Source of the DNA: Microthyrium microscopicum
Taxonomy: Eukaryota
Direction of reading: 5' to 3'
Length of the DNA stretch: 64,000 nucleotides
NCBI GenBank assembly: GCA_010405405.1
Contig: MU004230.1
Coordinates: 1,150,627-1,214,626, forward strand
The translations under genes were made by a program, and so were the position numbers. The notes under the pieces are model-generated. The model was not told the DNA's origin. It did no database searches and saw only the letters and a list, made by a program, of their open reading frames with translations. This document shows positions 26,761 to 44,027 of this stretch, piece after piece. Positions within the stretch are counted from its first letter, which is position 1, and each line of letters starts with the position of its first letter.

Positions 26761-29058
26761 TCATGGACCGCGTCGAATTCGCCTATTTGGAATTGGAGAC
26801 TTGGGCGCATCTTTTTCAGTTGAGCTTTCCGCGACAGCTAATTTTGGTGCTGACGCTGGTTCTGGGTCTGCGTCCGTCATCGTAACATCCTTGACATCCG
26901 GGAGCTCTGTAACGGGTGTAGTACCTGCGGAATCTTGATACTCGACATAAGTCTGGTCTGGCATGCTCATAGGCGAAGCAGATCGATAGTCGCTAAGAAT
27001 CTCGTCTTCGGGTGGAGAAAAGGACCATACTTCCATGACCGTCTTGCCTCCTCGAGAAGCCATAACCACGCAATGCTCTGGCTCAAATACCACTCGCCAA
27101 ACCGCATCAGCGGGCTGACAAAGATCGCGGACATGGGCTCCAGTCTTGAGATCCCAGACTTTGACTCGACCATCCGAGCCACCGCTGACAATACGAGTGT
27201 CGTCAAACTGAAGACTTGTGACGCTGTTGTCATGAGCAGCCAGCCTATGGATTGCTTGATACTCGGTCAAAGACCAAACACGAACTCCTCCATCGGAGCC
27301 TCCTGTTACGAGGATATCCCCTCGCATCTGAAGCTGACCGACAAGCGAGGTATGGCCTTGTAAAACTGCAAGACACCGCCTATATAGTTGTTAGCGAGGT
27401 TGATTCAATAATCTAGACGAAACCGGCGCGCTTCCTTGAGATGCTTGTGCAGGGGTAGAAAACTTTTACCTTCCTAAATTGGAAGGAAATGAGGGGAAAT
27501 CACTTACCCATCAGTTGGATCCCAAATACGGACCATGGTATCCAGACTTCCTGTTGCGATCTTCTTGCCATCAAACGCAATCGCATAAATTTGAGAAAAG
27601 TGACCCTGCAAGGTACGCAGGCATTTTCCATCTTTGATGCTCCAGATCTTGGCCGTGGTATCGTAACTACCACTTACAACCAAGTCACCGTGAATTTCAA
27701 GGCAGCGAACGCTTGAACCATGTCCAACAAGCACATGCTTACAGACACCCTTTTGAATGTCCCAGATCCGCAAGGTGGTGTCTCGAGACCCTGAGATAGC
27801 GGTGGTGGCGTCAGACATCTTCAAACAGCGCACAGTCGAGGTATGCCCTCGTAATACGTGTGTGCTAGTTCTAGAAACCAATATTAGCATAATCCGCAAT
27901 GAATGAATGTTATGAACATACCCAGTGGCCATATTCCATACACGGACATCTCTATCGCACCCTCCAGACACAAGAACATCATCCCAAGGTACCATAGCCC
28001 AGACTCCCATAACATGCCCTTGCAAGGTCTTTTGGTGGTTTCCATCCGTGTCAAACACGTGGATCTTAGCGTTATCAAGTGCTACAACGATATACTTGTC
28101 TGTGAGATGGAGACTTGTGACTACGCCATGATCAGGAGTGATCTGGCGGTGCTCCATTTTGCCGCCATGCTTCCAAGCCGTATCAACCATGTATCGCTGC
28201 TTGAAATGTGATCGGTAGGACAACGCTGGTGGACGTCTTCTCGAGTTGCGCTGATTTCGCCAACGATCTACGCTTTGAGTTCTCAAATCAGGTGCACTAT
28301 TGAATCCAGGTCCTGTAAGATGTGGTGGACGAGTGTATCCAAATTGCATCTGATAGGGAGATGTACCAGGCGTAGTGACGTCGCGAGATGTTTGAGCCAA
28401 GCGCTTGCGGGGTTCATCGGAAGGTCGTCGATAGTAGTATTTATCAGAAAGTGTTTTCCAGGCAGCGTCGTCGAGTACGAGTTCTCGCCATCTATGTGAC
28501 ACTTGGGAGGATCTTGCGAGTGTCTGAGGGTCATCGAAGAATTGTAAAATCTATTAGGGTTATATTAGCAAATGGCCCAATCATCCCCTGTGCACTTGTA
28601 CTCACCCGTAAGCAGATTTCATTGGGAAATGTCATAAACGGATCCTTTTTTAGTCGTGGGCTGACAAAGTCTTGTACGAATGCTAGTTGTTGACTACTGC
28701 ATAGATTGAGCAACTCCGCAAGCAGACGCTGCTTTTCGGCATCGTTCATTTCTACGAATACTGAGCGAACATGGCGAACATTACTATCTTCATGTTCTGC
28801 TGCAGTACTCCAATCTGGGGCTCGACCCATTGGTGTAGGACTTGGCGCGGGAGTAGGAGGTGATGCTGGCGCGGAAGGAAGAAGATTATGTGCCATGCTT
28901 GCGGCTATTGGACTGCTCGGAGTGTGTATTGCTCTAGGCGGCGGCCGTGTACTCGACATGGGGGCTTTTCGCTTTGTTAAAGAAGAAGATGGAGGAAATA
29001 CTGGTGGAGGAGGAGGAAGTTGCATATCATCAGGTGTTGGCTGGGATGGTAAATCCAT
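26761..29058 (-). CDS. F-box/WD40 repeat protein (Cdc4/Fbw7-like SCF substrate receptor), 4 exons
   Basis: Dimerisation helix (LLAELLNLCSSQQL), F-box (DPFMTFPNEICLR|ILQF, intron 28551-28605), seven or more WD repeats (GH...SGS.D..VRIW). Confidence 0.9.
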
Positions 29059-31732: not shown

Positions 31733-32555
31733 CTAGCAAGTGAACACCGAAGGTCCAGGTACAGTATACGACTTGAAGTTATTGTAAATATTGGCCGTAT
31801 AGCCCGAATCACTCGCCTTGAAAGCACCTGGGATCGAAACAGTAGGTTTTGGTAATGTACTTGCACCTCCCGAGACCTTAATTTGCGCACACGAAATGTA
31901 GAATTGCGGCTTGCCACCCGGGTTGTGAATGGCAAGCTGTTGTATGCGGAGAAGGTAGTCGCCAGGAGCGATGCAAGATGGGATCTTGACCGAGTAGTTT
32001 TCTGGATAGAATCAATCAGCAAAGTTAATATATATGTGCGAAGGGGTGTTCTTACTTGACATATCCCATTTAGCCTGTCCGCCTGCGAACGTTGGGCCAA
32101 TGTCTTTGACTTTGAACCATGGTGTGCTTCCATCTGCTGTCTTTGCGTCGGGCACTTGTGTCATGTAGAAGGAGATTGGTCTAGAAATCAGCACTTGTTG
32201 CTCTATGGAGTCTATAGAGGCTTACCCTTGGTGGTAGACAGCAGTGTCTGCGCCAAATGTCACCGTTGAGCCAGCAGCGACGGGCATAGTCTCAGTGCTC
32301 GCGCCTGATGTGCCACCTACATTGCAGCGAAGGTCTTTGTCGCCCAAGTCGACGACGGGGGAATTGTGATTTGTGTTTTTGCGGACGAATTGGTAGACTC
32401 CTCCTCCTTGGCTTCCAGATTTGACGGTTTGGAACATATCTATGTATGGTTAGAGTGCGCTAACGAATGTCGAGTTAGGCTGAGAACGTACAATGACCCT
32501 CTGTTACGGCGGACAGCAGCGCTATGGCTGAGGCAATGACTGATGTTGACTTCAT
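31733..32555 (-). CDS. AA9 lytic polysaccharide monooxygenase, secreted, no CBM, 4 exons
   Basis: Signal peptide [20 protein letters not shown] then His1 (HY across an intron), NSPVVDL..KDLRCN, VYHQGP, WFKV, GDYLLR...[18 protein letters not shown], ends PGPSVFTC. Confidence 0.92.
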
Positions 32556-33557
32556 GATATTGTTTGGCTGATATGTTGCAGTAAAGAGTGAACAGTTGAG
32601 AATCACGAAAATGATATGCAGGAGCGCTCGGGCGCTTTGATCCCTTATAGCAAATGTCTATGGCCAGAAGGCCTATAGAATGATTTGCCTAATCTCCTAA
32701 TGTACAACAGACCAGACGTAGGATTATTTCCATTCCTTGGATTAACCCTAGAATTAAAGGATGTCAATACTGCCGCGTTGACGGGCAGTGCGGAGAAAAT
32801 CATCATTGGCCAAAGACTTATGCGGCGAAGAATGGAACAACGCAAGTGCTTCCATCGTCCTGCTGCAAGTAGAAATTGTCCGACATGGATAGATTGAGCT
32901 GCGTGGAAGACTTGTCCTGTTTTGCTGTCTACGGCCCGTCTAAGCGAGGAGCTTTCCATGTCCTTTGGCCAGCAACTTTGTATTCGTCGACTGCAATTGA
33001 GCGGAACAAGCAAGTGATCTTGCCGGGAGTATAGTGATCGTGAGAATGGGGTAGGGACCAGCTGGGGACATAGATGAAGAAACCTGGGAAAAGAAGCCTT
33101 GCTGCTCTGTGCGCTGACGCGTGATTTTAAAGACCTTGCATGGTAATGAAACACTTCCAGGTTCTGGAATTGTCGATATGATATTCCTAGGATCCGATCT
33201 GGCCATCAAGCAAGACCGTTTCTATCGCTTGTAGCTGGACAATAAGTTGATAAGAAGCTCACCTGGAAAGTTCTGGAGAAGCTGACTTGGACCTATTTTC
33301 TGAGCTGTCAGCCGTCATTAGACCCTGACAGAAGCTTAAAACAATAGGAGGAACATATACGGTCCGGCAGTGCACCCTAAGTAGGTATGCAGGGTTTGTT
33401 GCTGCCAAACGGCTTACTGTTTAAAGCATAAGGAACACATGGCAGTTTGAAGACACCCAATGTGAAGTTCTGAGCCAGGAGAGGAGAACGTAAACAAAGC
33501 ATGAATCAAATTTCAAGTCGGGGGTATCAAATAATGAACACTTCCACGTCGTTCCGG

Positions 33558-34307
33558 CTAGCTGCCATTATCGCTGGCAGCAGCAGCCTCCGGATTCTTC
33601 TCCTCTCTGCCGTCTTGCCAGCTTGTACAATTGAAGCATCGTTTTGCGTGATCCTGACTACGTTAGTATACTAATTTGCATGTTTGGAGGTCATACTTAC
33701 ACTAATGTACTTCCTACAATACCTGCATCTGACTTGACGTTTGATGACATTATCGTTAGCTAGCCAGCCGTATGTTTTGCCAATTACGAAGAGGCCGAAT
33801 GCAATGAGAAAGAATCTCATCAGCTTGTCGATAAAGTTTCCATACGCCTGTAATATGTTAGTTCAGCGGTTCGCACTGTTCGACCAGAAAGTATGGTAGT
33901 CAAAGGAAGCCTTACCCAGACAACGGCTCCATCTTCCAAGGCTTGATCGACGGTGTTGTATATGAGCGATCTATGCTGACCACGACGAAGAATGAGGAAC
34001 TTCTCTTCGAGATTGCGAGAAAGAAAAGGGAGGAGAGATATGATAGGTAGAATGATATCGGACACAAGACTGTTGGCCACAGCAGTGAAAGAGGTTGCGA
34101 AGCTATCAAATGAGTTAGCATGGAGACTTGCTGCTCATGTGTTATTGTGTTATCAATTTACATCAATCCAACAGCAACTTCAAGCACATTGTCTCGAAAG
34201 CAAAAGTCTAAAAATCCATCCCAGGTCTTGCGTGCCGCTGAGCGAACGTCGTCAAAGTCCAAGTCGCCATCACCGTCGAAATCAAAAGAGTCGACCAGCT
34301 GAGGCAT
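33558..34307 (-). CDS. MscL-family (large-conductance mechanosensitive channel-like) protein, 4 exons
   Basis: Spliced: MPQLVDSFDFDGDGDLDFDDVRSAARKTWDGFLDFCFRDNVLEVAVGLIFATSFTAVANSLVSDIILPII...AYGNFIDKLMRFFLIAF...RCRYCRKYISDHAKRCFNCTSWQDGRE. It matches the MscL pattern F..F..RGNV..LAVG..IG.AF..IV.SLV.DII.P and YG.F. Confidence 0.85.
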
Positions 34308-35044
34308 GATATTGTAGTTGAATGCTATTGTTCTGTGGTGGACGCTGTCTTGCCGGGCTTTGGCAGTTGCTGTGCGAATTGAGAGGCGCCGAACAGAACA
34401 AGCTGATAACAGGAGATGCGAAAGAACTGTCGTACAGGTCTAGAAATACTAGGGTATAACAAGGAAAGCAGAGATTATGGGGAGCATAGGATGCAGTTGA
34501 GAGTCGAGATGGATTATGATGCATGTGAAGGACGCGAGCTGAAGCTTGATCCGTAAAAAGCAAAGCGCGTCCAACTTCCAACTTCCTGGCTCGCCTCCCT
34601 TTTCACTCTTGACAAAATCAATGGCACTCTCCCAACGAATACGATACTCAGTATCGGTGTTCAGAAAGAGCAATTTCCATCGTATTCAGTACTCCACATT
34701 CTTTCCTACGTGTTCAGGGAGAAACACAGTACCTATCGCTGACAGAAGGCTGTGAAAGCTGACTCTGCGATTCAACGTCAACTTTGTCCAATAATTCAAT
34801 CAATTATCACCATCGATGCCATGTGGAAGACATTTTCATTATTGAGAGTCAGCAGAGTTGAAGACACAAAAGCGCCTCCCCGCTTTAAATCGAACCAACT
34901 CTAAGAAGTGAAGTGTTAGCAAAATATCCGAACAGCATCATTTACTGGGGGCCATGCAAGCTCGTGTATCTCCATGATAAACCATCTCCGATGTATGCTA
35001 GGCTTTATCAATGTATTCACAGCTGTTTGAAGGATCTCTTCCCA

Positions 35045-35784: not shown

Positions 35785-37216
35785 TCAAACAGCCTTGGGT
35801 TCCGTCCCATCCTGCACTCTGGCCTCTTCAGGAACATCCTCTGCTACAGGCTTTCGCCCCCAGACGACAATCATATCCATCATAGGTCGGATTCTAGTCT
35901 GTACCAACTCATCAACAGCCAGACAAAGCAGCGCCTCAGTATCTTCGCCCGTCCACCCTAAGCGGTCTAGCATTCTTGGAGCAGCAGCTCGAATCCCGTC
36001 AACCCAGTTGTCCATATTCCACGCCCCCAACTTTTTGCTCTTCGCATCTTCCATCCACGGCCCAATCGCAATCCGCCGTGTCTCCTCTGTGACGTCCACA
36101 AAACCCGCCTCGCGCAGCCAACCCGAATATCTTGGTGCGATGGTCCAGGGCCTGCCAGCACGCTCAGCCGATTCTAGTAGCAGCGAGAACAATCGCACAA
36201 AAGCCGAGTCTCGCGGTGGTGTGCGGCCGTATTGTAGTGGGAAGACGCCGTCCTGAAACTCGATGTATCCGCCAGGGGTAGTAGCAGCGTAGGCGGATCG
36301 TATTACAGCGGCTGGGTTAGCGAAGCAGGTTACGACTGCGCGCAGATGGATGTAGTCGAACGATTGACGAAAAAGCCATTCATCCTCGGCATCGTCGACC
36401 TCAAAAGTTAGGTTAGGTGGGACCCTGTGAGCTTTTAGGGACATGTAGGAGTAGGGTGCGGATGAGCTACATGTCTGGCTGTATCGGTGATAAGTCTGTG
36501 CCTATTACATTCGTGTCTGGATACTTGTCCGCTGGACAGGTCAGCCAATGAATCAGCAGATAAGGGTTCACAAACCGAACTCGACGGCCCATAGACCAGT
36601 TCCTAAAAATGGTCAACAGCAAGATGGCATGGCGTGTGTATGTTTCCTACCAGTAGCAACGTCTAGCACATTGTTAAGTTGTATGGATTCAATAGGCGCA
36701 AGCGCTAATTGGCCATCAAGATGTTGCTTCAGAATCTGGTGTTGTCTATCTACACTTATGTAAGTAAAGCCGAAGTATTTGATTTAGGTTAACCTACCTA
36801 ATCGATCCTGTTCCTTCTAGAAAGCCTAAGATCAACAATCATCATTTGATATCGAATGGGGCACCTACTTCGTCATTGGGTAGGACATACTCTGAAACCA
36901 TCAGTGAAAAAAACCATGAAACATGAAGATAACGCACTGCCATCTTTGTATGCATGATAAGTCCTGCCATGTTCTTGAACATGGTTGTACAAACTTGATC
37001 TCACACTCGTCAGGGAGGACCTGCAAACCGGTCAGTCATCCTCATGGTCTGACTGAGTTTTAGGTCAACATACGCAAAGTCAGAATCTTCGCCATCGAAT
37101 GTAGAAGTGCTGTCACCATAAGCGCTGCTTTTGACGGCCTGTACTTCTTGTGCAAACACAGCTTGCTCTGGCTTGAGTGATTCAACGATTCTATCTGGAA
37201 ATTGGGTGTCCGTCAT
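35785..37216 (-). CDS. LaeA-like class I SAM-dependent methyltransferase, 8 exons
   Basis: Spliced: EHGRTYHAYKDGKYVLPNDEKEQDRLD.QH...VLDVATGTGLWAVEFADKYP...GTDLSPIQP...PPNLTFEVDDAEDEW...FDYIHLR...PGGYIEFQD; all 7 introns are GT-AG and keep the frame. Confidence 0.9.
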
Positions 37217-38203: not shown

Positions 38204-39084
38204 ATGGCTGACCAACTCACCAACCAACCGCCATCCGTCACAACCTACAAGCTCTCATATCCCGCACCCCATGTCCTCCTCATAACCATCAACCGTCCCA
38301 AACAAATGAACTCCATCCCCGTCCTCGGCCACTGGGAAGCCGATTCACTCTTCACCTGGTTCGACGAGGAGCCCAGCCTACGCGTTGCCGTCATCACTGG
38401 CGCGGGCGACAAGGCCTTCAGCGCTGGTGCTGACCTGATAGAAGCGGGGAAGACACGAGGTGCAGGAAAGGCCCAGGCGCCGGTGCCGTTAAGTGGATTT
38501 ATGGGTGTGTCGAGACGTGTGGGCAAGAAGCCGATTATTGCTGCTGTCAATGGATTTGCGCTCGGCGGTGGATTCGAAATCTGTCTTGGATGGTAAGTGC
38601 AACAAATTTAGGCAGTGGTTGGAGGGGGCTAATTATGATTAGTGATATGATTGTCGCATCGCCCAAGGCACAATTTGGTCTCCCAGAAGCGCTGCGTGGT
38701 CTATATGCGGGCGCTGGTGGTCTGTCGCGACTTGTTCGCTTGGTGGGCTTGACGCAGGCATCGGAGATTGCACTGACTGGCAAGCGTTTGAGCGCGGAAG
38801 AGGCTGTTGCGCGTGGTGTGGCCAACAAGGTGTCCAAGACTCACGAGTCGGTCGTTGAGGAGGCCATTGAGATGGCCACGCTGATTGGCGAGCTATCTCC
38901 AGACGCCGTCATCGTCACAAAGCATGGTCTTCGTCAAGCATTGGAGACCGCGAGTGTGGAGCGTGCTAGCCAGTTGACGCAAGAACGGTATGGGTATGCG
39001 CTCTCGCAGGCTCCCAACTTCCGCATCGGATTGACGGCGTTTGCTCAGAAGCAAAAGCCCAACTGGGTCGCTTCTAAGCTATGA
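38204..39084 (+). CDS. Peroxisomal enoyl-CoA hydratase/isomerase (crotonase family), 2 exons
   Basis: AFSAGADL, KPIIAAVNGFALGGGFE, intron 38593-38642, FGLPE; C-terminal PTS1 -SKL. Confidence 0.92.
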
Positions 39085-39837: not shown

Positions 39838-41736
39838 TTATAGTTCATCCCGATGGGGAATATATATACTCCAACCTCGCTCACCAGCTTGTAAGCCGAC
39901 GAAAGAGTGCCAGAAACGAACAAATTCCCATTTCACAATGTGCCACGCTTTCTGGGGGAAGGCTAACCACGAGCCGATGATGTATCGAAAGACGCGGTAC
40001 ACAAGTCCAAACTCCTCACGGAAGATCTCCATGATACTCATGTCTGGATCGTTCCGGCGATTGAAGTTGGGATAGTCATCTGCCTCGTCTTCAGCATCAG
40101 AAACTGTCTGAAGTTTCGGCCTTTCTGGTCGTGATTTTTCAGAGGCATTTTGCTTTGGAGCAGAGTTGGTTACATTTGGCGTAGAAGAGGATTCTTCAAT
40201 CTGACTTCTGAAGTATTGAAGGGCGCTTAGACTATTACTGACTTTGCCCAGGGTATTCATAAGAGCAACAAGCTCTGTACGACGTAGAGGCGGGTTGTTC
40301 CTGGGATTCTTCTCGTCAAACTCAAAGAGAATTTTCAATGCGGTGCCGTAACCGTTAGTTTGTAGCTTGCCCCAAAGACGACATTTATCGCAGCCCACGC
40401 AATCCATGACCCGGCTGATGTTGCGAAATCGCTGCTTGAAGTCTTCCTTGAGGCCAATAGCATCTGGCGATTGAAACATGATGCTTTCATCAAAGATCTC
40501 GCCACTGCTCTTGACAGTGTCGGAAAGTGCAACGACCAACATCTTCGTACGCGCATTCTGTGATGGATCCGCCGAACAGAAAGTGTAATCTTTCAGACTC
40601 TTGTTGATCTTTCCAACTGCTCTTAGGAGCAGGGCGTAGTTGAAGTAAAGGTTGGATATTCTCTCAGGATGGTCGAGTACTCGTGACTTGAAGCATTCGG
40701 CATTCGGTCCCCACTCTCCAGTGGTCTGGTTGAGAAAGTCGTAGCATAAATGAGTCGAGATTGATGCGTGCATCCCACTGACAACTCTATGGAAGACACG
40801 CTTTTCAACGCACTCTTGGTCAAATTCGAGCTGGTCGATTGGTTGCATGGACAGTCCGTTTGCAATCGCGTCCTTGACTCCTTGTTGCATGCTTCCTTCC
40901 TTCATTACGGAGAAAAGATCATTCGCAGCCTGCGCCTGAAATGGATTCTTTGGTCCGAAGGATGGTGGCATGGAGGTTGACTCCTGATTCTTGGCTGGTT
41001 TCGAAAAACAGTTCTCGCGATAGATTGCTCCCCAAACTTGCTGAGAGCTTGGTCCAGAGTAACCAGTAAACCGTTCAGGGTTATCGGTCAAGCTAACATA
41101 GTCGCCTTTGCTAGTCGCACGTTCGTCCTCTGGAACACAATAGTCTCGCTCGTCGCATTCGTCATCGTATTCCACCACGCAACTTTCGCCAACATCCTCG
41201 CCAAGTTGACCTTGTAGTGGCTTTTGCGGAGCTCTTTCTTTTTGAAGTTTCTTCCCAGGATGTTCTGCTTTTGGACCTTGCAGCTTTCCTAGTTCCTCTG
41301 CGCGCCATGATAATGGTATATCCTCCTCGTTTTCTATTGTATTAACAGCACAGGCTATGTTTCCGCACGTTCCGCTTTCGTCCGTCCAGAAAGGGCACTT
41401 TTTATTGTACAAGTTGAGGCGATAATGTGAAAAGAAATCGGTATGTAGTGTGACTGCTTGAAGTTGTTGGCTCAGCGCAGCATTGATGGAGTCGAGGGAG
41501 GAGTAGGAGACGCATGCATCGGATACGATAGAATTAGGTTCGTACTGGAAGCCAACAGTGTAAGTATTCTGACCAGCTTGAATGGTAGCGGGAGGCGGCG
41601 GAGTTCGCTTTTGCACACTTACAGCGCAGACATCTGAGCCTGTCCCTGCTTGCTTGCCATTGCTGCTTTCCGCATGCGCCGAACTACCCCACAGCGCAAA
41701 GACTGCGAGGTAGAAGACTTGTCTTGCGGATCGCAT
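39838..41736 (-). CDS. ERO1: ER oxidoreductin 1, 2 exons
   Basis: Signal peptide, CPFW, DNPERFTGY, VSGMHASISTHLC, MDCVGCDKCRLWGKLQ, C-terminal RDEL; in-frame intron 41545-41622. Confidence 0.95.
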   Translation of the reverse strand: MRSARQVFYLAVFALWGSSAHAESSNGKQAGTGSDVCAVSVQKRTPPPPATIQAGQNTYTVGFQYEPNSIVSDACVSYSSLDSINAALSQQLQAVTLHTDFFSHYRLNLYNKKCPFWTDESGTCGNIACAVNTIENEEDIPLSWRAEELGKLQGPKAEHPGKKLQKERAPQKPLQGQLGEDVGESCVVEYDDECDERDYCVPEDERATSKGDYVSLTDNPERFTGYSGPSSQQVWGAIYRENCFSKPAKNQESTSMPPSFGPKNPFQAQAANDLFSVMKEGSMQQGVKDAIANGLSMQPIDQLEFDQECVEKRVFHRVVSGMHASISTHLCYDFLNQTTGEWGPNAECFKSRVLDHPERISNLYFNYALLLRAVGKINKSLKDYTFCSADPSQNARTKMLVVALSDTVKSSGEIFDESIMFQSPDAIGLKEDFKQRFRNISRVMDCVGCDKCRLWGKLQTNGYGTALKILFEFDEKNPRNNPPLRRTELVALMNTLGKVSNSLSALQYFRSQIEESSSTPNVTNSAPKQNASEKSRPERPKLQTVSDAEDEADDYPNFNRRNDPDMSIMEIFREEFGLVYRVFRYIIGSWLAFPQKAWHIVKWEFVRFWHSFVGLQAGERGWSIYIPHRDEL

Positions 41737-44027
41737 AGTGACTAATGCAGTAGGATTCTAGATAGAGACTCAAATGTCAGCGCATGTTCTGCAGCGATTG
41801 TATGCGACAGATGGAGATAAAAATGCTATAAAGCGCAAATACAGAGATCGTGGCATTTGAAGGTGCATGGGAGAAACAATACCTTCTTAAGACACCAGCT
41901 GTGTCAAAGAGGCCAAGTCACGGACTTGGGGTTCAATAATCTATATCTGTCACTCTTTAAAGTGCCGGTGATAAGGCCGGGTTCTGGACTTGTAATGTGG
42001 GCCAAATATAGAAACTATCAAAGAGCATTTCAAGCGCAGAAGACATGGAAGAAAAAGGTGTAGCCAAGAAGAGGATTAAAAGGAGGATTGTGTTGTACCA
42101 GTGGGAGAGGCGATGAAGTGGTGAAGTTGGCATCTGACGATTGCTGTCCCAAAGCGGAAGGGGAGAAAACACGTTGCGGCACTTGTTAGCTTCGAGGCTT
42201 GGCTTGGCATCCACTCCTTTTCTTTGTTGATGACAATCAAGATCCTGACAACCTGATCCTGATCCTGCCATTGTCATTGGCCTTTGTCTCTCAAAATGGT
42301 CAGACTTCCATCTGATTATCTGGTTACTTCTACTTGATTATTAAACTACCCCGATAATGCTTACCTTATAGAGCACCATACCTATATTTGTCCCAAATTT
42401 GGTCTCTGTGAGCTCTTACATGAAGCTATGGCCATTGCCACTGTCCAAAACAGATAGAGGATTGCAAGCTGGCTTCATGACCAAACCACACATAGTATTT
42501 TACTATTTCAACTCATCGTCATATGAAAGTCGGCCATTTTCTTCGTACAGAAGTCGCGGAAGTTGCCATTGATTCGATCTTCCACCAATCCCAGCACCAT
42601 CTTTGAACATTCTGACATTCTTTTGACTACAGCCGCAGAGAGGAAAAGCTCGTGTTGTTAAAATGAACATCTGCCTGACGGATATATGTCTGGATGCGAG
42701 GATATCAAAAGAGTGGCTTAGAAGTACAAGTATGTTCCCCTTGACCCGCGAAGTCACTGTAACATCCAGAATTCCTTGAAAGTGTGAAGCGCTCAAGATG
42801 ACTACGGGAGCGATGAGCCCGATAGAAAAGATACTTGTAGATTGGATATGGGGGTGAGTAGATAACCTTGAGCCTGGCCTGACTGATGCTCCGAAACGGA
42901 GGCGCTCTGTTTTGTCTTTACACCAATCAAAATACTCAAAATTTGTCGTCTCCCAGCTGTCATTTGACAGCGTTTCAAACCTCGAAACATTTGGCCGCCC
43001 GTCCATGAAAAGGCAAGTTCAAAAGTTCAATGAAGTTGAAATTAGCGCTTTCTCCTGCTTCCCCTTTTCATATCCTATCATCCCTCTCGGCCTTGTGTCA
43101 ACCCGTACACTTTTGATTTGGATTACGACCACTTCCAGAAATACCTTGCTATCAATTGCGCAAGACATGGTTAGCCAACAAGAATCTCCAAGTCAGTCAA
43201 GCAGACCTTGTGTTCATGCTGGTTCAATGTTGGAATGCACATGACAAAAGTTATAGCGAAATACAACAATCATGACGACTCGCAGTTATGTATGACTGAT
43301 CAAGAACACTTGGAGACAGTTGTCCCTGCAATGATCCTGAGCGTACTTTACAATGAAAAAGTCCTGAATCAACAGCTTTATTTTGGTCCTAGGCAAATAT
43401 TCCTTTGTTCGGAAGGGTAAAGGCCGACGTAAGTTCAAACATCCCCTCAATCATGACCCTTGATTCCACCATCCCCGGTACAGCCCATTTGCTCCAACAG
43501 GCGACAAAAAAGAAGCGCTGTCAATGAGCAAGCTCATCGGATCGCCTGTATTCCCATGCAGCCGGCCTTGGCCGCTTAGTCCAAACGGAACCCGAGCATC
43601 ATTGCATCTCCCGTCAATCTTCCTGACCAATGACCTGACTGCGTCTGTGTTTCGAGGTATGCAAACACCACTTTCTATCCTCTGTAGGCCTCCCATTCAT
43701 CTCGAGGAATACATCCTGTATGCTGGTCGTTCGCTATTCTATGAAACTGTGGAACTGGGAGAAGTATGAATTCTTATGAGGTGGCTGTGATGAAAGGCCT
43801 CCCATCATCAAACATGGTTGTTTATATGGAAGCCATCTGCCCAAGATCTCTTTTCTAACCTCTTCGTCTTCGTTTTGCCATTTGCTATAGTTCGCTGTTG
43901 ATTTCTCAAGTACATTCGTTTCTTTGCCGCACGGTCGGTTTACCTTACTCAAACATCCTCTGTGAGGACCAATATCATATTCAACGTCGTCGAACTTTTC
44001 CAATATCACATTACTTACATCTTCAAC

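What the first reader, a model, noticed from the sequence alone, without database searches (positions are those of the whole stretch)
33558..34307. Fungal MscL-like channel with an N-terminal EF-hand-like Ca2+ loop and a C-terminal zinc ribbon
Seen: residues 9-20 (34248-34283) read D-F-D-G-D-G-D-L-D-F-D-D, preceded by F and followed by V and a helix. This matches the canonical 12-residue EF-hand loop (D1, D3, D5, G6, hydrophobic 8, D9, acidic 12). It lies directly before the amphipathic F..F..R.NV helix. The C-terminus has CRYC-x9-CFNC. Established: MscL is an oligomeric tension-gated channel whose cytoplasmic N-terminal helix couples to gating; fungal homologues are poorly characterised. Inference: a Ca2+-modulated mechanosensitive channel, with single EF loops pairing between subunits. 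I know of no description of this architecture. The ORF track shows only a fragment of the gene.
Basis: partly seen in the sequence, partly recalled or inferred. Interest (0 to 1): 0.72.

Follow-up and report, generated by a model that had tools for sequence, protein, structure and literature searches.

The report
Fungal MscL channel with calcium-type loop
This is an expressed fungal gene for a pressure-release membrane channel (MscL) whose front end carries a short calcium-binding-type loop seen only in a few close relatives, while its zinc-binding tail turns out to be an old, widespread feature of this channel family.

Summary
On the minus strand a four-exon gene (34307-33558, 191 aa) encodes a fungal MscL. 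A spliced contig from a public run removes exactly the three predicted introns. Residues 9-21 (DFDGDGDLDFDDV, 34283-34245) fit the 12-residue EF-hand loop consensus. The C-terminus has two CxxC pairs, spaced x10, not x9.

The two add-ons differ in novelty.

- **Zinc ribbon: ordinary.** It occurs in 72 of 97 fungal relatives, in 100 of 147 further family representatives, and in 76 of 80 bacterial MscL loci.
- **EF-like loop: rare.** It occurs in the window protein and five metagenomic relatives that may form one clade. It was absent from the other 64 full N-termini and from 85 further representatives.

Across those six sequences the metal-liganding positions 1, 5, 9 and 12, plus G6 and F10, are invariant. 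Position 3 is D/N and position 8 is hydrophobic. Positions 2, 4, 7 and 11 vary. A model of the closest homologue starts a helix at loop position 10, and that helix runs into the S1 gating helix.

Against a full EF-hand: Pfam scores are below threshold, the entering helix is rudimentary, there is no second hand, and position 12 is Asp.

Best reading: a lineage-specific divalent-cation site placed to tune S1-dependent gating. Metal binding and any gating effect are untested.

The parts
33558..34307 (-). Whole coding region of the fungal MscL gene (191 aa, four exons, stop TAG at 33560-33558)
   Evidence: tblastn of P0007 gives four segments on these exons. A spliced contig of run X1 confirms the junctions.
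34162..34307 (-). Exon 1: start codon, N-terminal extension with the EF-like loop, S1 amphipathic helix, start of TM1
   Evidence: ATG 34307 is the first in-frame ATG, GTG or TTG after a stop. The MP[RQ]L start is shared with many homologues.
34245..34283 (-). EF-hand-type loop, residues 9-20 (DFDGDGDLDFDD), plus V21
   Evidence: Regex fit. Pfam EF-hand families at 18-19 bits, below cutoff. Conserved in P0005, P0007, P0010, P0011 and P0100.
34185..34223 (-). S1 amphipathic helix region, W29 to V41 (WDGFLDFCFRDNV), aligned with the MscL N-terminal helix
   Evidence: Pfam MscL profile positions 2-3 begin here in the homologues. The model of P0007 has helix 18-36.
34103..34161 (-). Intron 1 (59 nt, GT..AG, CTAAC branch site)
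   Evidence: Contig joint 34102/34162.
33916..34102 (-). Exon 2: rest of TM1 and the outer loop
33848..33915 (-). Intron 2 (68 nt)
   Evidence: The contig skips 68 nt here.
33701..33847 (-). Exon 3: TM2 and the first CxxC (CRYC) of the zinc ribbon
33654..33700 (-). Intron 3 (47 nt), which splits the zinc ribbon
   Evidence: The contig skips 47 nt here.
33558..33653 (-). Exon 4: second CxxC (CFNC), the conserved TSWQDGRE motif, an acidic and alanine-rich tail, and the stop codon
34308..34496 (-). 5' leader covered by the spliced contig; holds a 12-codon upstream ORF from 34487 that ends before the main ATG

Best explanation
**What it is.** The locus is an expressed, four-exon gene for a fungal member of the MscL family, the tension-gated large-conductance channels. 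It has two transmembrane helices. By analogy with bacterial MscL, both ends lie on the cytoplasmic side.

**C-terminal end.** The Cys4 zinc ribbon (CxxC-x10-CxxC) is an inherited, family-wide module. In a large MscL subfamily of bacteria and fungi it takes the place of the C-terminal helix of the E. coli type.

**N-terminal end.** The tail of about 28 residues that fungal MscLs carry has, in this lineage only, been turned into an EF-hand-type metal loop. It consists of the loop plus the exiting helix, with at most two turns of entering helix. This resembles the dockerin 'F-hand' more than a full EF-hand; the dockerin comparison is recalled, not tested.

**Mechanism (inferred).** The exiting helix is predicted to run straight into S1, the amphipathic helix that couples MscL to the bilayer and stabilises the closed state. 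I infer that Ca2+ (or Mg2+, given Asp at loop position 12) binds the loop, orders it, and neutralises about eight negative charges. That would change how S1 sits on the membrane and shift the tension threshold. The channel would then be linked to the cytosolic Ca2+ rise that follows hypo-osmotic shock.

**Shown:** gene model, family membership, motif, its conservation pattern, and the spread of both add-ons.
**Inferred:** metal binding, topology, and any effect on gating.
For: **Gene and expression**
- A contig of run X1 skips exactly 47, 68 and 59 nt at the predicted introns and covers the ATG and 189 nt upstream.
- ATG 34307 is the first in-frame start, and exon 1 has no later Met.
- Four of the five EF-bearing relatives, and many others, also begin MP (MPR/MPA/MPQ).

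**Family**
- Pfam MscL scores 67.8 bits for P0007, 69.1 for P0011 and 75.4 for the Verruconis protein, against a cutoff of 27.4.
- P0007 aligns to all four exons at 62-81% identity.
- The model of P0007 (mean pLDDT 80.7) has helices 18-36, 40-71 and 112-139.
- The three best Foldseek matches are solved MscL structures.

**Zinc ribbon**
- The four Cys, plus R155, K156, I158, R164 and the T169-W171-DGRE motif after the last Cys (S170 nearly invariant), are invariant in 12 asco- and basidiomycete sequences.
- CxxC-x10-CxxC is present in 72 of 97 and in 100 of 147 family proteins, and in 76 of 80 bacterial loci.
- The mean pLDDT is 94 for residues 151-170.

**EF-like loop**
- It fits the regex, and 353 of 200000 shuffles do.
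- Across the six sequences, D1, D5, G6, D9, F10 and D12 are invariant. Position 3 is D or N and position 8 is L, V or F. Positions 2, 4, 7 and 11 vary. This is the pattern expected of a working EF loop. By hand count, the chance that all four variable positions fall among the five side-chain-free positions (2, 4, 7, 10, 11) is 5 in 495.
- These proteins are only 60-77% identical in exon 1, and path lengths in the tree are 0.42-0.77.
- The modelled helix starts at F18, which is loop position 10, as in canonical EF-hands.
- Exon 1 residues 3-22 align to troponin C as QLIDEFDPFGNGDIDFDSFK.

**Role of S1:** Bavi et al. 2016, PMC4917966 (abstract read).

**Precedent for an EF-hand on a fungal mechanosensitive channel:** the MscS-like Msy2 type, PMC13463886 (passages read).
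Against: - Pfam EF-hand scores are below the gathering scores: 18.7-18.9 bits against 25 for the window, 13-14.5 bits for three homologues, and no hit for P0007 or P0010.
- Only 5-10 residues precede the loop, and they are not conserved. The model leaves residues 1-17 as coil with pLDDT 52-59, and below 50 at residues 9-12.
- There is no second EF loop in the protein, yet EF-hands normally work in pairs.
- Position 12 is Asp in all six sequences, not the usual Glu. From recalled knowledge, this lowers Ca2+ affinity and favours Mg2+.
- The six carriers may be a single clade, so the conservation could partly reflect shared ancestry.
  - With N-terminal columns included they group at 98% SH-aLRT.
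  - Without those columns they split into two weakly supported groups.
  - The AU test does not reject one clade, p = 0.30.
- 64 of 69 other full N-termini, and 85 of 85 further representatives, lack the loop. It is therefore dispensable for the channel as such.
- No tool here measures metal binding or gating.
- Subcellular location and topology are assumed, not shown.
Confidence: 0.45

Rival explanations
1. The loop is an acidic N-terminal tail with no specific metal site. Fungal MscL N-termini are generally charged and variable. In one lineage the tail drifted to an Asp-rich sequence that happens to fit the loose EF pattern, and its apparent conservation reflects the close kinship of six sequences.
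For: - All EF-hand profile scores are below the curated thresholds.
- The N-terminal 17 residues are modelled as low-confidence coil.
- The carriers may form a single clade.
- Non-carrier relatives have acidic but non-EF tails at the same place.
- The PROSITE EF-hand pattern is known to give false positives (recalled).
Against: - Even with this composition only 353 of 200000 shuffles fit the pattern.
- The flanks of the loop and its positions 2, 4, 7 and 11 vary, while G6, hydrophobic position 8, F10 and every liganding Asp are kept across proteins that are 60-77% identical. Mere acidity would not need G6, L8 or F10.
Confidence: 0.3
2. The loop binds a divalent cation, but its role is structural. 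Loops of neighbouring subunits pair and stabilise or set the oligomer, rather than tune gating acutely.
For: - Lone EF-hand peptides can homodimerise on Ca2+ binding (recalled from work on troponin C site III peptides).
- The protein has only one loop, and MscL is an oligomer.
- Hydrophobic position 8, which forms the inter-loop beta bridge in EF pairs, is conserved as L, V or F.
Against: - An odd-numbered (pentameric) ring cannot pair all of its loops.
- S1 helices of solved MscL radiate along the membrane, away from one another (recalled).
- Most fungal MscLs assemble without the loop.
Confidence: 0.1
3. The acidic stretch is a sorting or partner-binding signal, for example a di-acidic ER-export motif or a docking site for another protein, rather than a metal sensor.
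For: - It is a cytosol-facing, Asp-rich N-terminal tail with repeated D-x-D.
- Di-acidic export signals exist in other channels and transporters (recalled).
- The tail is variable across the family.
Against: - Di-acidic signals need no Gly at position 6 or a fixed 12-residue spacing.
- The conservation pattern follows the EF loop position by position.
- No partner or location data exist.
Confidence: 0.1
4. The loop is not part of the protein, because translation starts elsewhere or exon 1 is spliced differently.
For: None found. An upstream in-frame ATG at 34487 exists but stops after 12 codons.
Against: - ATG 34307 is the first in-frame start, and the next Met lies in exon 3, beyond TM1.
- The spliced contig covers 34162-34496 without a joint.
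- Four of the five carrier homologues also begin MP, and all place the loop 5-10 residues from Met1.
Confidence: 0.02

Closest known systems
Bacterial MscL (E. coli EcMscL, M. tuberculosis TbMscL; Pfam PF01741, NCBIfam TIGR00220)
   Same: It has the S1 amphipathic helix, TM1, an outer loop and TM2. The Pfam and NCBIfam MscL profiles match homologue P0007 over residues 30-140. The best structural matches are 4y7k, 2oar and 3hzq.
   Different: - About 28 extra N-terminal residues carry the EF-type loop.
- The outer loop is longer.
- A zinc ribbon stands where these proteins have a C-terminal helix.
- The gene is eukaryotic, with three introns.
- Function has not been tested.
Bacterial MscL subfamily with a C-terminal zinc ribbon (for example P0243 and P0154; loci L004-L083 from Gammaproteobacteria, Gemmatimonadota, Zixibacteria and others)
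   Same: It has the same CxxC-x10-CxxC-T motif after TM2 with identical spacing, found in 76 of 80 loci. The fungal profile ranks these proteins among its best hits.
   Different: They start directly at S1, with no N-terminal extension and no EF loop. They lack the fungal W-x-DGRE motif after the ribbon.
Other fungal MscL homologues (for example Verruconis gallopava, Elsinoe, Pleosporales, Sordariales, Agaricomycetes)
   Same: They share the architecture, the N-terminal extension, the MP[RQ]L start, the zinc ribbon and the TSW-x-DGRE motif.
   Different: Their N-terminal extension has no EF-type loop. 64 of 69 full N-termini lack it.
Fungal MscS-like channels Msy1/Msy2 (S. pombe) and their relatives in nematode-trapping fungi
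   Same: They are mechanosensitive channels of fungi that carry an EF-hand motif and are tied to Ca2+ and hypo-osmotic responses (PMC13463886 and PMC9367656, passages read).
   Different: They belong to an unrelated channel family (MscS fold, more transmembrane helices). Their EF-hand is annotated by InterPro as a full motif, whereas this one is loop plus exiting helix at the extreme N-terminus.
Canonical EF-hands (calmodulin, troponin C) and loop-plus-exit-helix 'F-hands' of dockerins (DxDxDG class)
   Same: The 12-residue loop has D1, D/N3, D5, G6, hydrophobic 8, D9 and acidic 12, and a helix starts at position 10. Asp at position 12 and the lack of an entering helix resemble dockerin repeats; this resemblance is recalled, not tested.
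   Different: - It is a single copy.
- Pfam scores are below threshold.
- The entering helix is rudimentary.
- It is attached to a membrane channel helix rather than lying within a globular four-helix domain.

Membership tests
MscL (Pfam PF01741) | Profile match above the curated cutoff | tested here: met
   The window exons, scanned singly, score 18.2 and 17.0 bits, each below 27.4. The spliced protein could not be handed to the tool. Homologue P0007, 62-81% identical over all four exons, scores 67.8 bits; P0011 scores 69.1 and P0006 scores 75.4.
MscL (Pfam PF01741) | N-terminal amphipathic helix followed by two transmembrane helices | tested here: met
   The AlphaFold2 model of P0007 has helices 18-36, 40-71 and 112-139, with mean pLDDT 80.7. 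This was tested on the homologue, not on the window protein itself.
MscL (Pfam PF01741) | Fold likeness to solved MscL | tested here: inconclusive
   The top three Foldseek rows are MscL structures (4y7k_D, 2oar_A, 3hzq). Their E-values are 0.012-0.17 and TM-scores 0.28-0.51, and no match reached E <= 0.001.
MscL (Pfam PF01741) | Tension-gated, large-conductance pore formed by a homo-oligomer | not testable with these tools
   Needs patch-clamp of the reconstituted or heterologously expressed protein.
EF-hand (PROSITE PS00018; Pfam PF00036/PF13405) | 12-residue loop consensus | tested here: met
   DFDGDGDLDFDDV fits the pattern, which was recalled and coded as a regex. 353 of 200000 shuffles fit it.
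EF-hand (PROSITE PS00018; Pfam PF00036/PF13405) | Profile match above the curated cutoff | tested here: not met
   18.9, 18.7 and 18.3 bits against cutoffs of 25, 25.4 and 30. Homologues score 13.3-14.5 bits or give no hit.
EF-hand (PROSITE PS00018; Pfam PF00036/PF13405) | Entering (E) helix of about ten residues before the loop | tested here: not met
   Only 8 residues precede the loop here, and 5-10 in relatives, and they are not conserved. The model has residues 1-17 as coil with pLDDT 52-59. In the window, hydrophobic residues M1, L4, V5 and F8 could form two turns (by eye).
EF-hand (PROSITE PS00018; Pfam PF00036/PF13405) | Exiting (F) helix starting at loop position 10 | tested here: met
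   The modelled helix begins at F18, which is loop position 10, in P0007.
EF-hand (PROSITE PS00018; Pfam PF00036/PF13405) | Occurrence as a pair of hands in one domain | tested here: not met
   There is one match in the 191-aa protein. Pairing between subunits could not be assessed.
EF-hand (PROSITE PS00018; Pfam PF00036/PF13405) | Glu at loop position 12 (bidentate ligand) | tested here: not met
   Position 12 is Asp in all six sequences. The PROSITE pattern allows Asp, but it is the minority form (recalled).
EF-hand (PROSITE PS00018; Pfam PF00036/PF13405) | Ca2+ binding | not testable with these tools
   Needs ITC, Tb3+ luminescence or 45Ca overlay.
Zinc ribbon (Cys4) | Two CxxC knuckles at a conserved spacing | tested here: met
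   CRYC-x10-CFNC at residues 152-169. The four Cys are invariant or at least 90% conserved in 106 family sequences. Spacing is x10 in 76 of 80 bacterial loci.
Zinc ribbon (Cys4) | Profile match to a curated zinc-ribbon family | tested here: not met
   Zn_Ribbon_1 scores 10.1-10.7 bits against a cutoff of 25. The bacterial forms score 15-16 bits on DZR against 27.3.
Zinc ribbon (Cys4) | Beta-hairpin knuckle fold | tested here: inconclusive
   Short strands at 148-150 and 157-159, with mean pLDDT 94 over residues 151-170. Local Foldseek rows match NZF/RanBP2-type fingers and ribosomal eL40 at rmsd 0.8-1.1 A over 24 residues, but with E above 1.

The most novel reading that the evidence does not exclude
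This would be a natural MscL whose tension threshold is set by cytosolic Ca2+. The EF-type loop's exiting helix is the N-terminal continuation of S1. Metal binding would therefore re-position the very helix that couples the channel to the bilayer. That would give a small clade of ascomycetes a channel that combines membrane stretch and Ca2+ signalling in about 190 residues. It would be a ready-made natural template for ligand-tunable MscL.
Probability: 0.25. Interest if true: 0.7.

Novelty: new variant of a known kind. Interest (0 to 1): 0.5.

Why it matters
MscL is the standard model for force-from-lipid gating, and its N-terminal helix is a key coupling element (PMC4917966, abstract read). 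Fungal MscLs are essentially uncharacterised. The one statement I found is an unpublished knockout without a trap-formation phenotype (PMC13463886, passage read).

A natural variant with a metal-binding loop fused in-line to S1 would allow a direct test of how loading that helix changes gating. It would also link a second fungal mechanosensitive channel family to Ca2+ signalling, beside the EF-hand-bearing MscS-like channels.

A separate point also matters. A large MscL subfamily in bacteria and fungi ends in a zinc ribbon. Neither Pfam's nor NCBIfam's MscL models cover it, and none of the papers I searched mention it. This affects annotation and the understanding of the channel's cytoplasmic end.

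Tried and rejected
- **Complex prediction** (residues 1-30, two copies, with two Ca2+): the verdict was 'no answer'. It is no evidence either way on pairing of the loops.
- **The search for homologous proteins with exon 1, 'longer'**: no hit.
- **The search for homologous proteins with P0005 region 1-48**: two further proteins, of which P0100 carries the loop.
Three loci were kept: two MscL genes without the loop and one unrelated EF-hand protein. No new carriers were found.
- **The genome search 'own'**: no genome is held for this window, so paralogues elsewhere in the genome could not be sought.
- **The look-up of sequencing runs**: no RNA holder is listed on record. The one run given (X1, kind guessed) was laid.
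- **The search of earlier findings**: nothing.
- **Paper searches:**
  - 'MscL' with fungal/zinc, Neurospora, or eukaryotic/mitochondria terms gave nothing on fungal MscL architecture.
  - Hits in PMC13342296 were 'MSClust'.
  - PMC9156883, PMC12458113 and PMC387263 hold the terms only in reference lists or unrelated tables.
  - Pivetti et al. 2003 (PMC150521) is not held, so I could not check what it says about fungal homologues.
- **Rejected idea: the zinc ribbon is a fungal novelty.** The bacterial loci refute it.
- **Rejected idea: an alternative start omits the loop**.
Full report
**1. What is in the sequence**

The minus strand of 33558-34307 holds a gene that an ORF list shows only as fragments, because it has introns. 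I placed four exons:
- 34307-34162
- 34102-33916
- 33847-33701
- 33653-33558

Joined by coordinates in a script, they give 576 nt and 191 codons without an internal stop. The three introns are 59, 68 and 47 nt. Each begins GT, ends AG and has a CTAAC branch site.

Two independent checks agree with this model:
- tblastn with the closest full-length relative, P0007, gives four segments on exactly these exons at 62-81% identity, and no second copy in the window.
- A 2420-letter contig of public run X1 lies on the region with no mismatches and skips exactly 47, 68 and 59 bases at the predicted introns.

The run's kind is only guessed as RNA, but the intron-less form exists in it. That contig continues unbroken from 34162 to 34496, which is 189 nt upstream of the ATG. 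Exon 1 is therefore not spliced further.

ATG 34307 is the first in-frame start after a stop. An upstream in-frame ATG at 34487 ends after 12 codons. The next Met lies in exon 3, beyond TM1. The loop cannot be left out by another start without losing the channel.

**2. The observation**

- The stretch fits the PROSITE EF-hand pattern, which I recalled and coded as a regex.
- 353 of 200000 shuffles of residues 2-28 fit it, so it is unlikely even given the Asp-rich make-up.
- Pfam EF-hand_6, EF-hand_1 and EF-hand_7 match residues 6-27 with E about 1e-3 and 18-19 bits, below their gathering scores of 25-30.
- All 60 PDB sequences listed for exon 1 are EF-hand proteins. One troponin C site aligns as QLIDEFDPFGNGDIDFDSFK against QLVDSFDFDGDGDLDFDDVR.

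The C-terminal motif is CRYC-x10-CFNC (residues 152-169), not x9, and intron 3 splits it.

**3. Family**

Exon 2 recovered 95 proteins of 110-2000 residues, almost all annotated or pre-scored as MscL (PF01741). They come from asco- and basidiomycetes and from metagenomes. Full-length relatives pass the Pfam cutoff comfortably, at 54-75 bits against 27.4, and match NCBIfam MscL models.

An AlphaFold2 model of P0007, built with 106 family sequences, has mean pLDDT 80.7. It shows:
- a helix at 18-36 (the N-terminal extension plus S1);
- TM1 at 40-71;
- an outer loop with short strands;
- TM2 at 112-139;
- a confident small beta module at 148-170.

Its best Foldseek matches are solved MscL structures (4y7k, 2oar, 3hzq), though weakly. 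The C-terminal module gives local, non-significant matches to small zinc fingers. P0007 is 75-77% identical to it.

**4. The zinc ribbon is old and widespread**

In 12 fungal sequences from both phyla, the four Cys, the flanking R155, K156, I158 and R164, and the T169-W171-DGRE motif are invariant (S170 nearly so).

| Set examined | Carry CxxC-x10-CxxC |
|---|---|
| Word-index relatives | 72 of 97 |
| Further 50%-identity representatives found with a family profile | 100 of 147 |
| Bacterial genome loci fetched with P0243 | 76 of 80 |

Many of the representatives look bacterial. They are about 150 aa and start directly at S1. The 80 bacterial loci come from Gammaproteobacteria, Deltaproteobacteria, Gemmatimonadota, Zixibacteria, Ignavibacteria and others. 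The four loci without the motif failed my anchor regex and were not shown to lack it.

Pfam's and NCBIfam's MscL models end before the ribbon. The ribbon is therefore a feature of a large MscL subfamily, not of this gene. I found no paper holding both 'MscL' and 'zinc ribbon'. The six papers with 'mechanosensitive channel' and 'zinc ribbon' do not, by title or abstract, concern such a channel; I opened two (PMC12458113, PMC387263), and there the two terms are unconnected.

**5. The EF-type loop is rare and lineage-specific**

Among 69 relatives with a full N-terminus, four fit the strict pattern (P0005, P0007, P0011, P0100). One more, P0010, fits it except for Phe at position 8. None of 85 further representatives with a full N-terminus fits even a relaxed pattern. 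All five carriers are metagenomic proteins without names.

In the six-sequence alignment, which is 60-77% identical to the window's exon 1:

| Loop positions | State |
|---|---|
| 1, 5, 6, 9, 10, 12 | invariant (D, D, G, D, F, D) |
| 3 | D or N |
| 8 | L, V or F |
| 2, 4, 7, 11 | variable |

The residues before the loop, and those between the loop and W29, also vary. This is the position-by-position pattern of a working EF loop: side-chain ligands at 1, 3, 5, 9 and 12, a Gly turn at 6, and a hydrophobic residue at 8. By hand count, the chance that four variable positions out of 12 all fall among the five positions free of side-chain constraint is 5 in 495.

Tree results:
- With the N-terminal columns included, the six carriers and P0008 (whose N-terminus is missing) form a group at 98% SH-aLRT, beside the Elsinoe/Sphaceloma proteins.
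- With those columns removed, as they should be for this question, the carriers fall into two weakly supported groups, with the Verruconis protein and P0024 between them.
- An AU test does not reject a single clade (p = 0.30).

One origin is therefore possible but not shown. If there was one origin, some relatives may have lost the loop.

**6. What argues against a true EF-hand**

- All profile scores are below the curated cutoffs.
- Only 5-10 residues precede the loop, and they are not conserved. In the window, M1, L4, V5 and F8 could make two helical turns with the usual hydrophobic spacing, but that is by eye.
- The model leaves residues 1-17 as low-confidence coil.
- There is one loop per chain.
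- Position 12 is Asp in all six sequences. From recalled knowledge, Asp at this position lowers Ca2+ affinity and favours Mg2+.

A loop plus exiting helix with Asp-12 recalls the dockerin 'F-hand' of the DxDxDG class. That resemblance is recalled, not tested. No dockerin model appeared in the Pfam scan at E <= 10.

**7. How it most likely works**

*Shown:* the modelled helix begins at F18, which is loop position 10, where the exiting helix of a canonical EF-hand begins. It continues without a break through S1 to residue 36.

*Inferred:*
- Both ends face the cytosol. This follows from bacterial MscL topology and from a Cys4 zinc site, which suits a reducing compartment.
- A divalent cation in the loop would order the first 20 residues and cancel much of their charge (eight Asp in residues 6-20). 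That would change how S1 lies on the anionic inner leaflet and shift the tension threshold.
- Fungal MscS-like channels already pair an EF-hand with hypo-osmotic Ca2+ responses (PMC13463886 and PMC9367656, passages), so this logic has a precedent in another family.

My estimates are:
- about 0.5 that the loop binds a divalent cation;
- about 0.25-0.3 that this tunes gating;
- about 0.3 that it is an acidic tail without a specific site.

Smaller shares go to a structural inter-subunit role and to a sorting or partner signal.

**8. Novelty and verdict**

The gene is a member of a known family, and its zinc ribbon is ordinary for the subfamily. The EF-type loop joined to S1 is a new variant.

My searches for MscL with EF-hand found 25 and 4 papers. 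I judged them by title and abstract. Of these I opened only PMC13463886 and PMC9156883, and neither describes such a protein. The library lacks most subscription journals, and Pivetti et al. 2003 was not held.

The finding is real and moderately interesting. Its functional claim rests on sequence pattern alone. The neighbourhood is ordinary housekeeping: F-box/WD40, a methyltransferase, enoyl-CoA hydratase and ERO1.

Noticed in passing
L004-L083 (bacterial genome loci); proteins P0243, P0154: A large bacterial MscL subfamily ends in a CxxC-x10-CxxC-T zinc ribbon instead of the usual C-terminal helix: 76 of 80 loci from many phyla. Pfam and NCBIfam MscL models stop before it, and no paper held both 'MscL' and 'zinc ribbon'.
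   Followed up: partly
window 33558-33653 and homologues (alignment A2): After the ribbon, fungal MscLs share the motif C-T-S/T-W-x-D-G-R-E, in which T, W and DGRE are invariant (S nearly so) across asco- and basidiomycetes. The bacterial ribbon-bearing forms I looked at lack it. Its role is unknown.
   Followed up: no
window about 31900-33557 and 34308-34496: The spliced contig of run X1 is 2420 letters long. It covers 189 nt of 5' leader, which holds a 12-codon uORF from 34487. It also runs about 1.65 kb past the stop codon. That is either a very long 3' region or an overlap with another transcript. The 186-codon open frame at 32648-33205 (-) has no Pfam hit.
   Followed up: partly
window 27507-28550 (-), 35788-36501 (-), 38434-39081 (+), 39841-41757 (-): The neighbouring genes are ordinary: an F-box/WD40 protein, a Methyltransf_23 protein, an enoyl-CoA hydratase and ERO1 (E = 6e-136). 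Nothing suggests a functional cluster with the channel gene.
   Followed up: partly
L003:1117-2262: This metagenome locus was picked up through the EF-loop pattern alone. It encodes an unrelated protein with two EF-type loops (DRNGDGDVDFVE and DGDSSGTVDGAE) and a poly-proline tail, and it is not an MscL.
   Followed up: no
P0014, P0047 (Elsinoe proteins): Two fungal MscL homologues are named 'anditomin synthesis protein L' in public records. This looks like an annotation carried over by similarity and was not checked.
   Followed up: no
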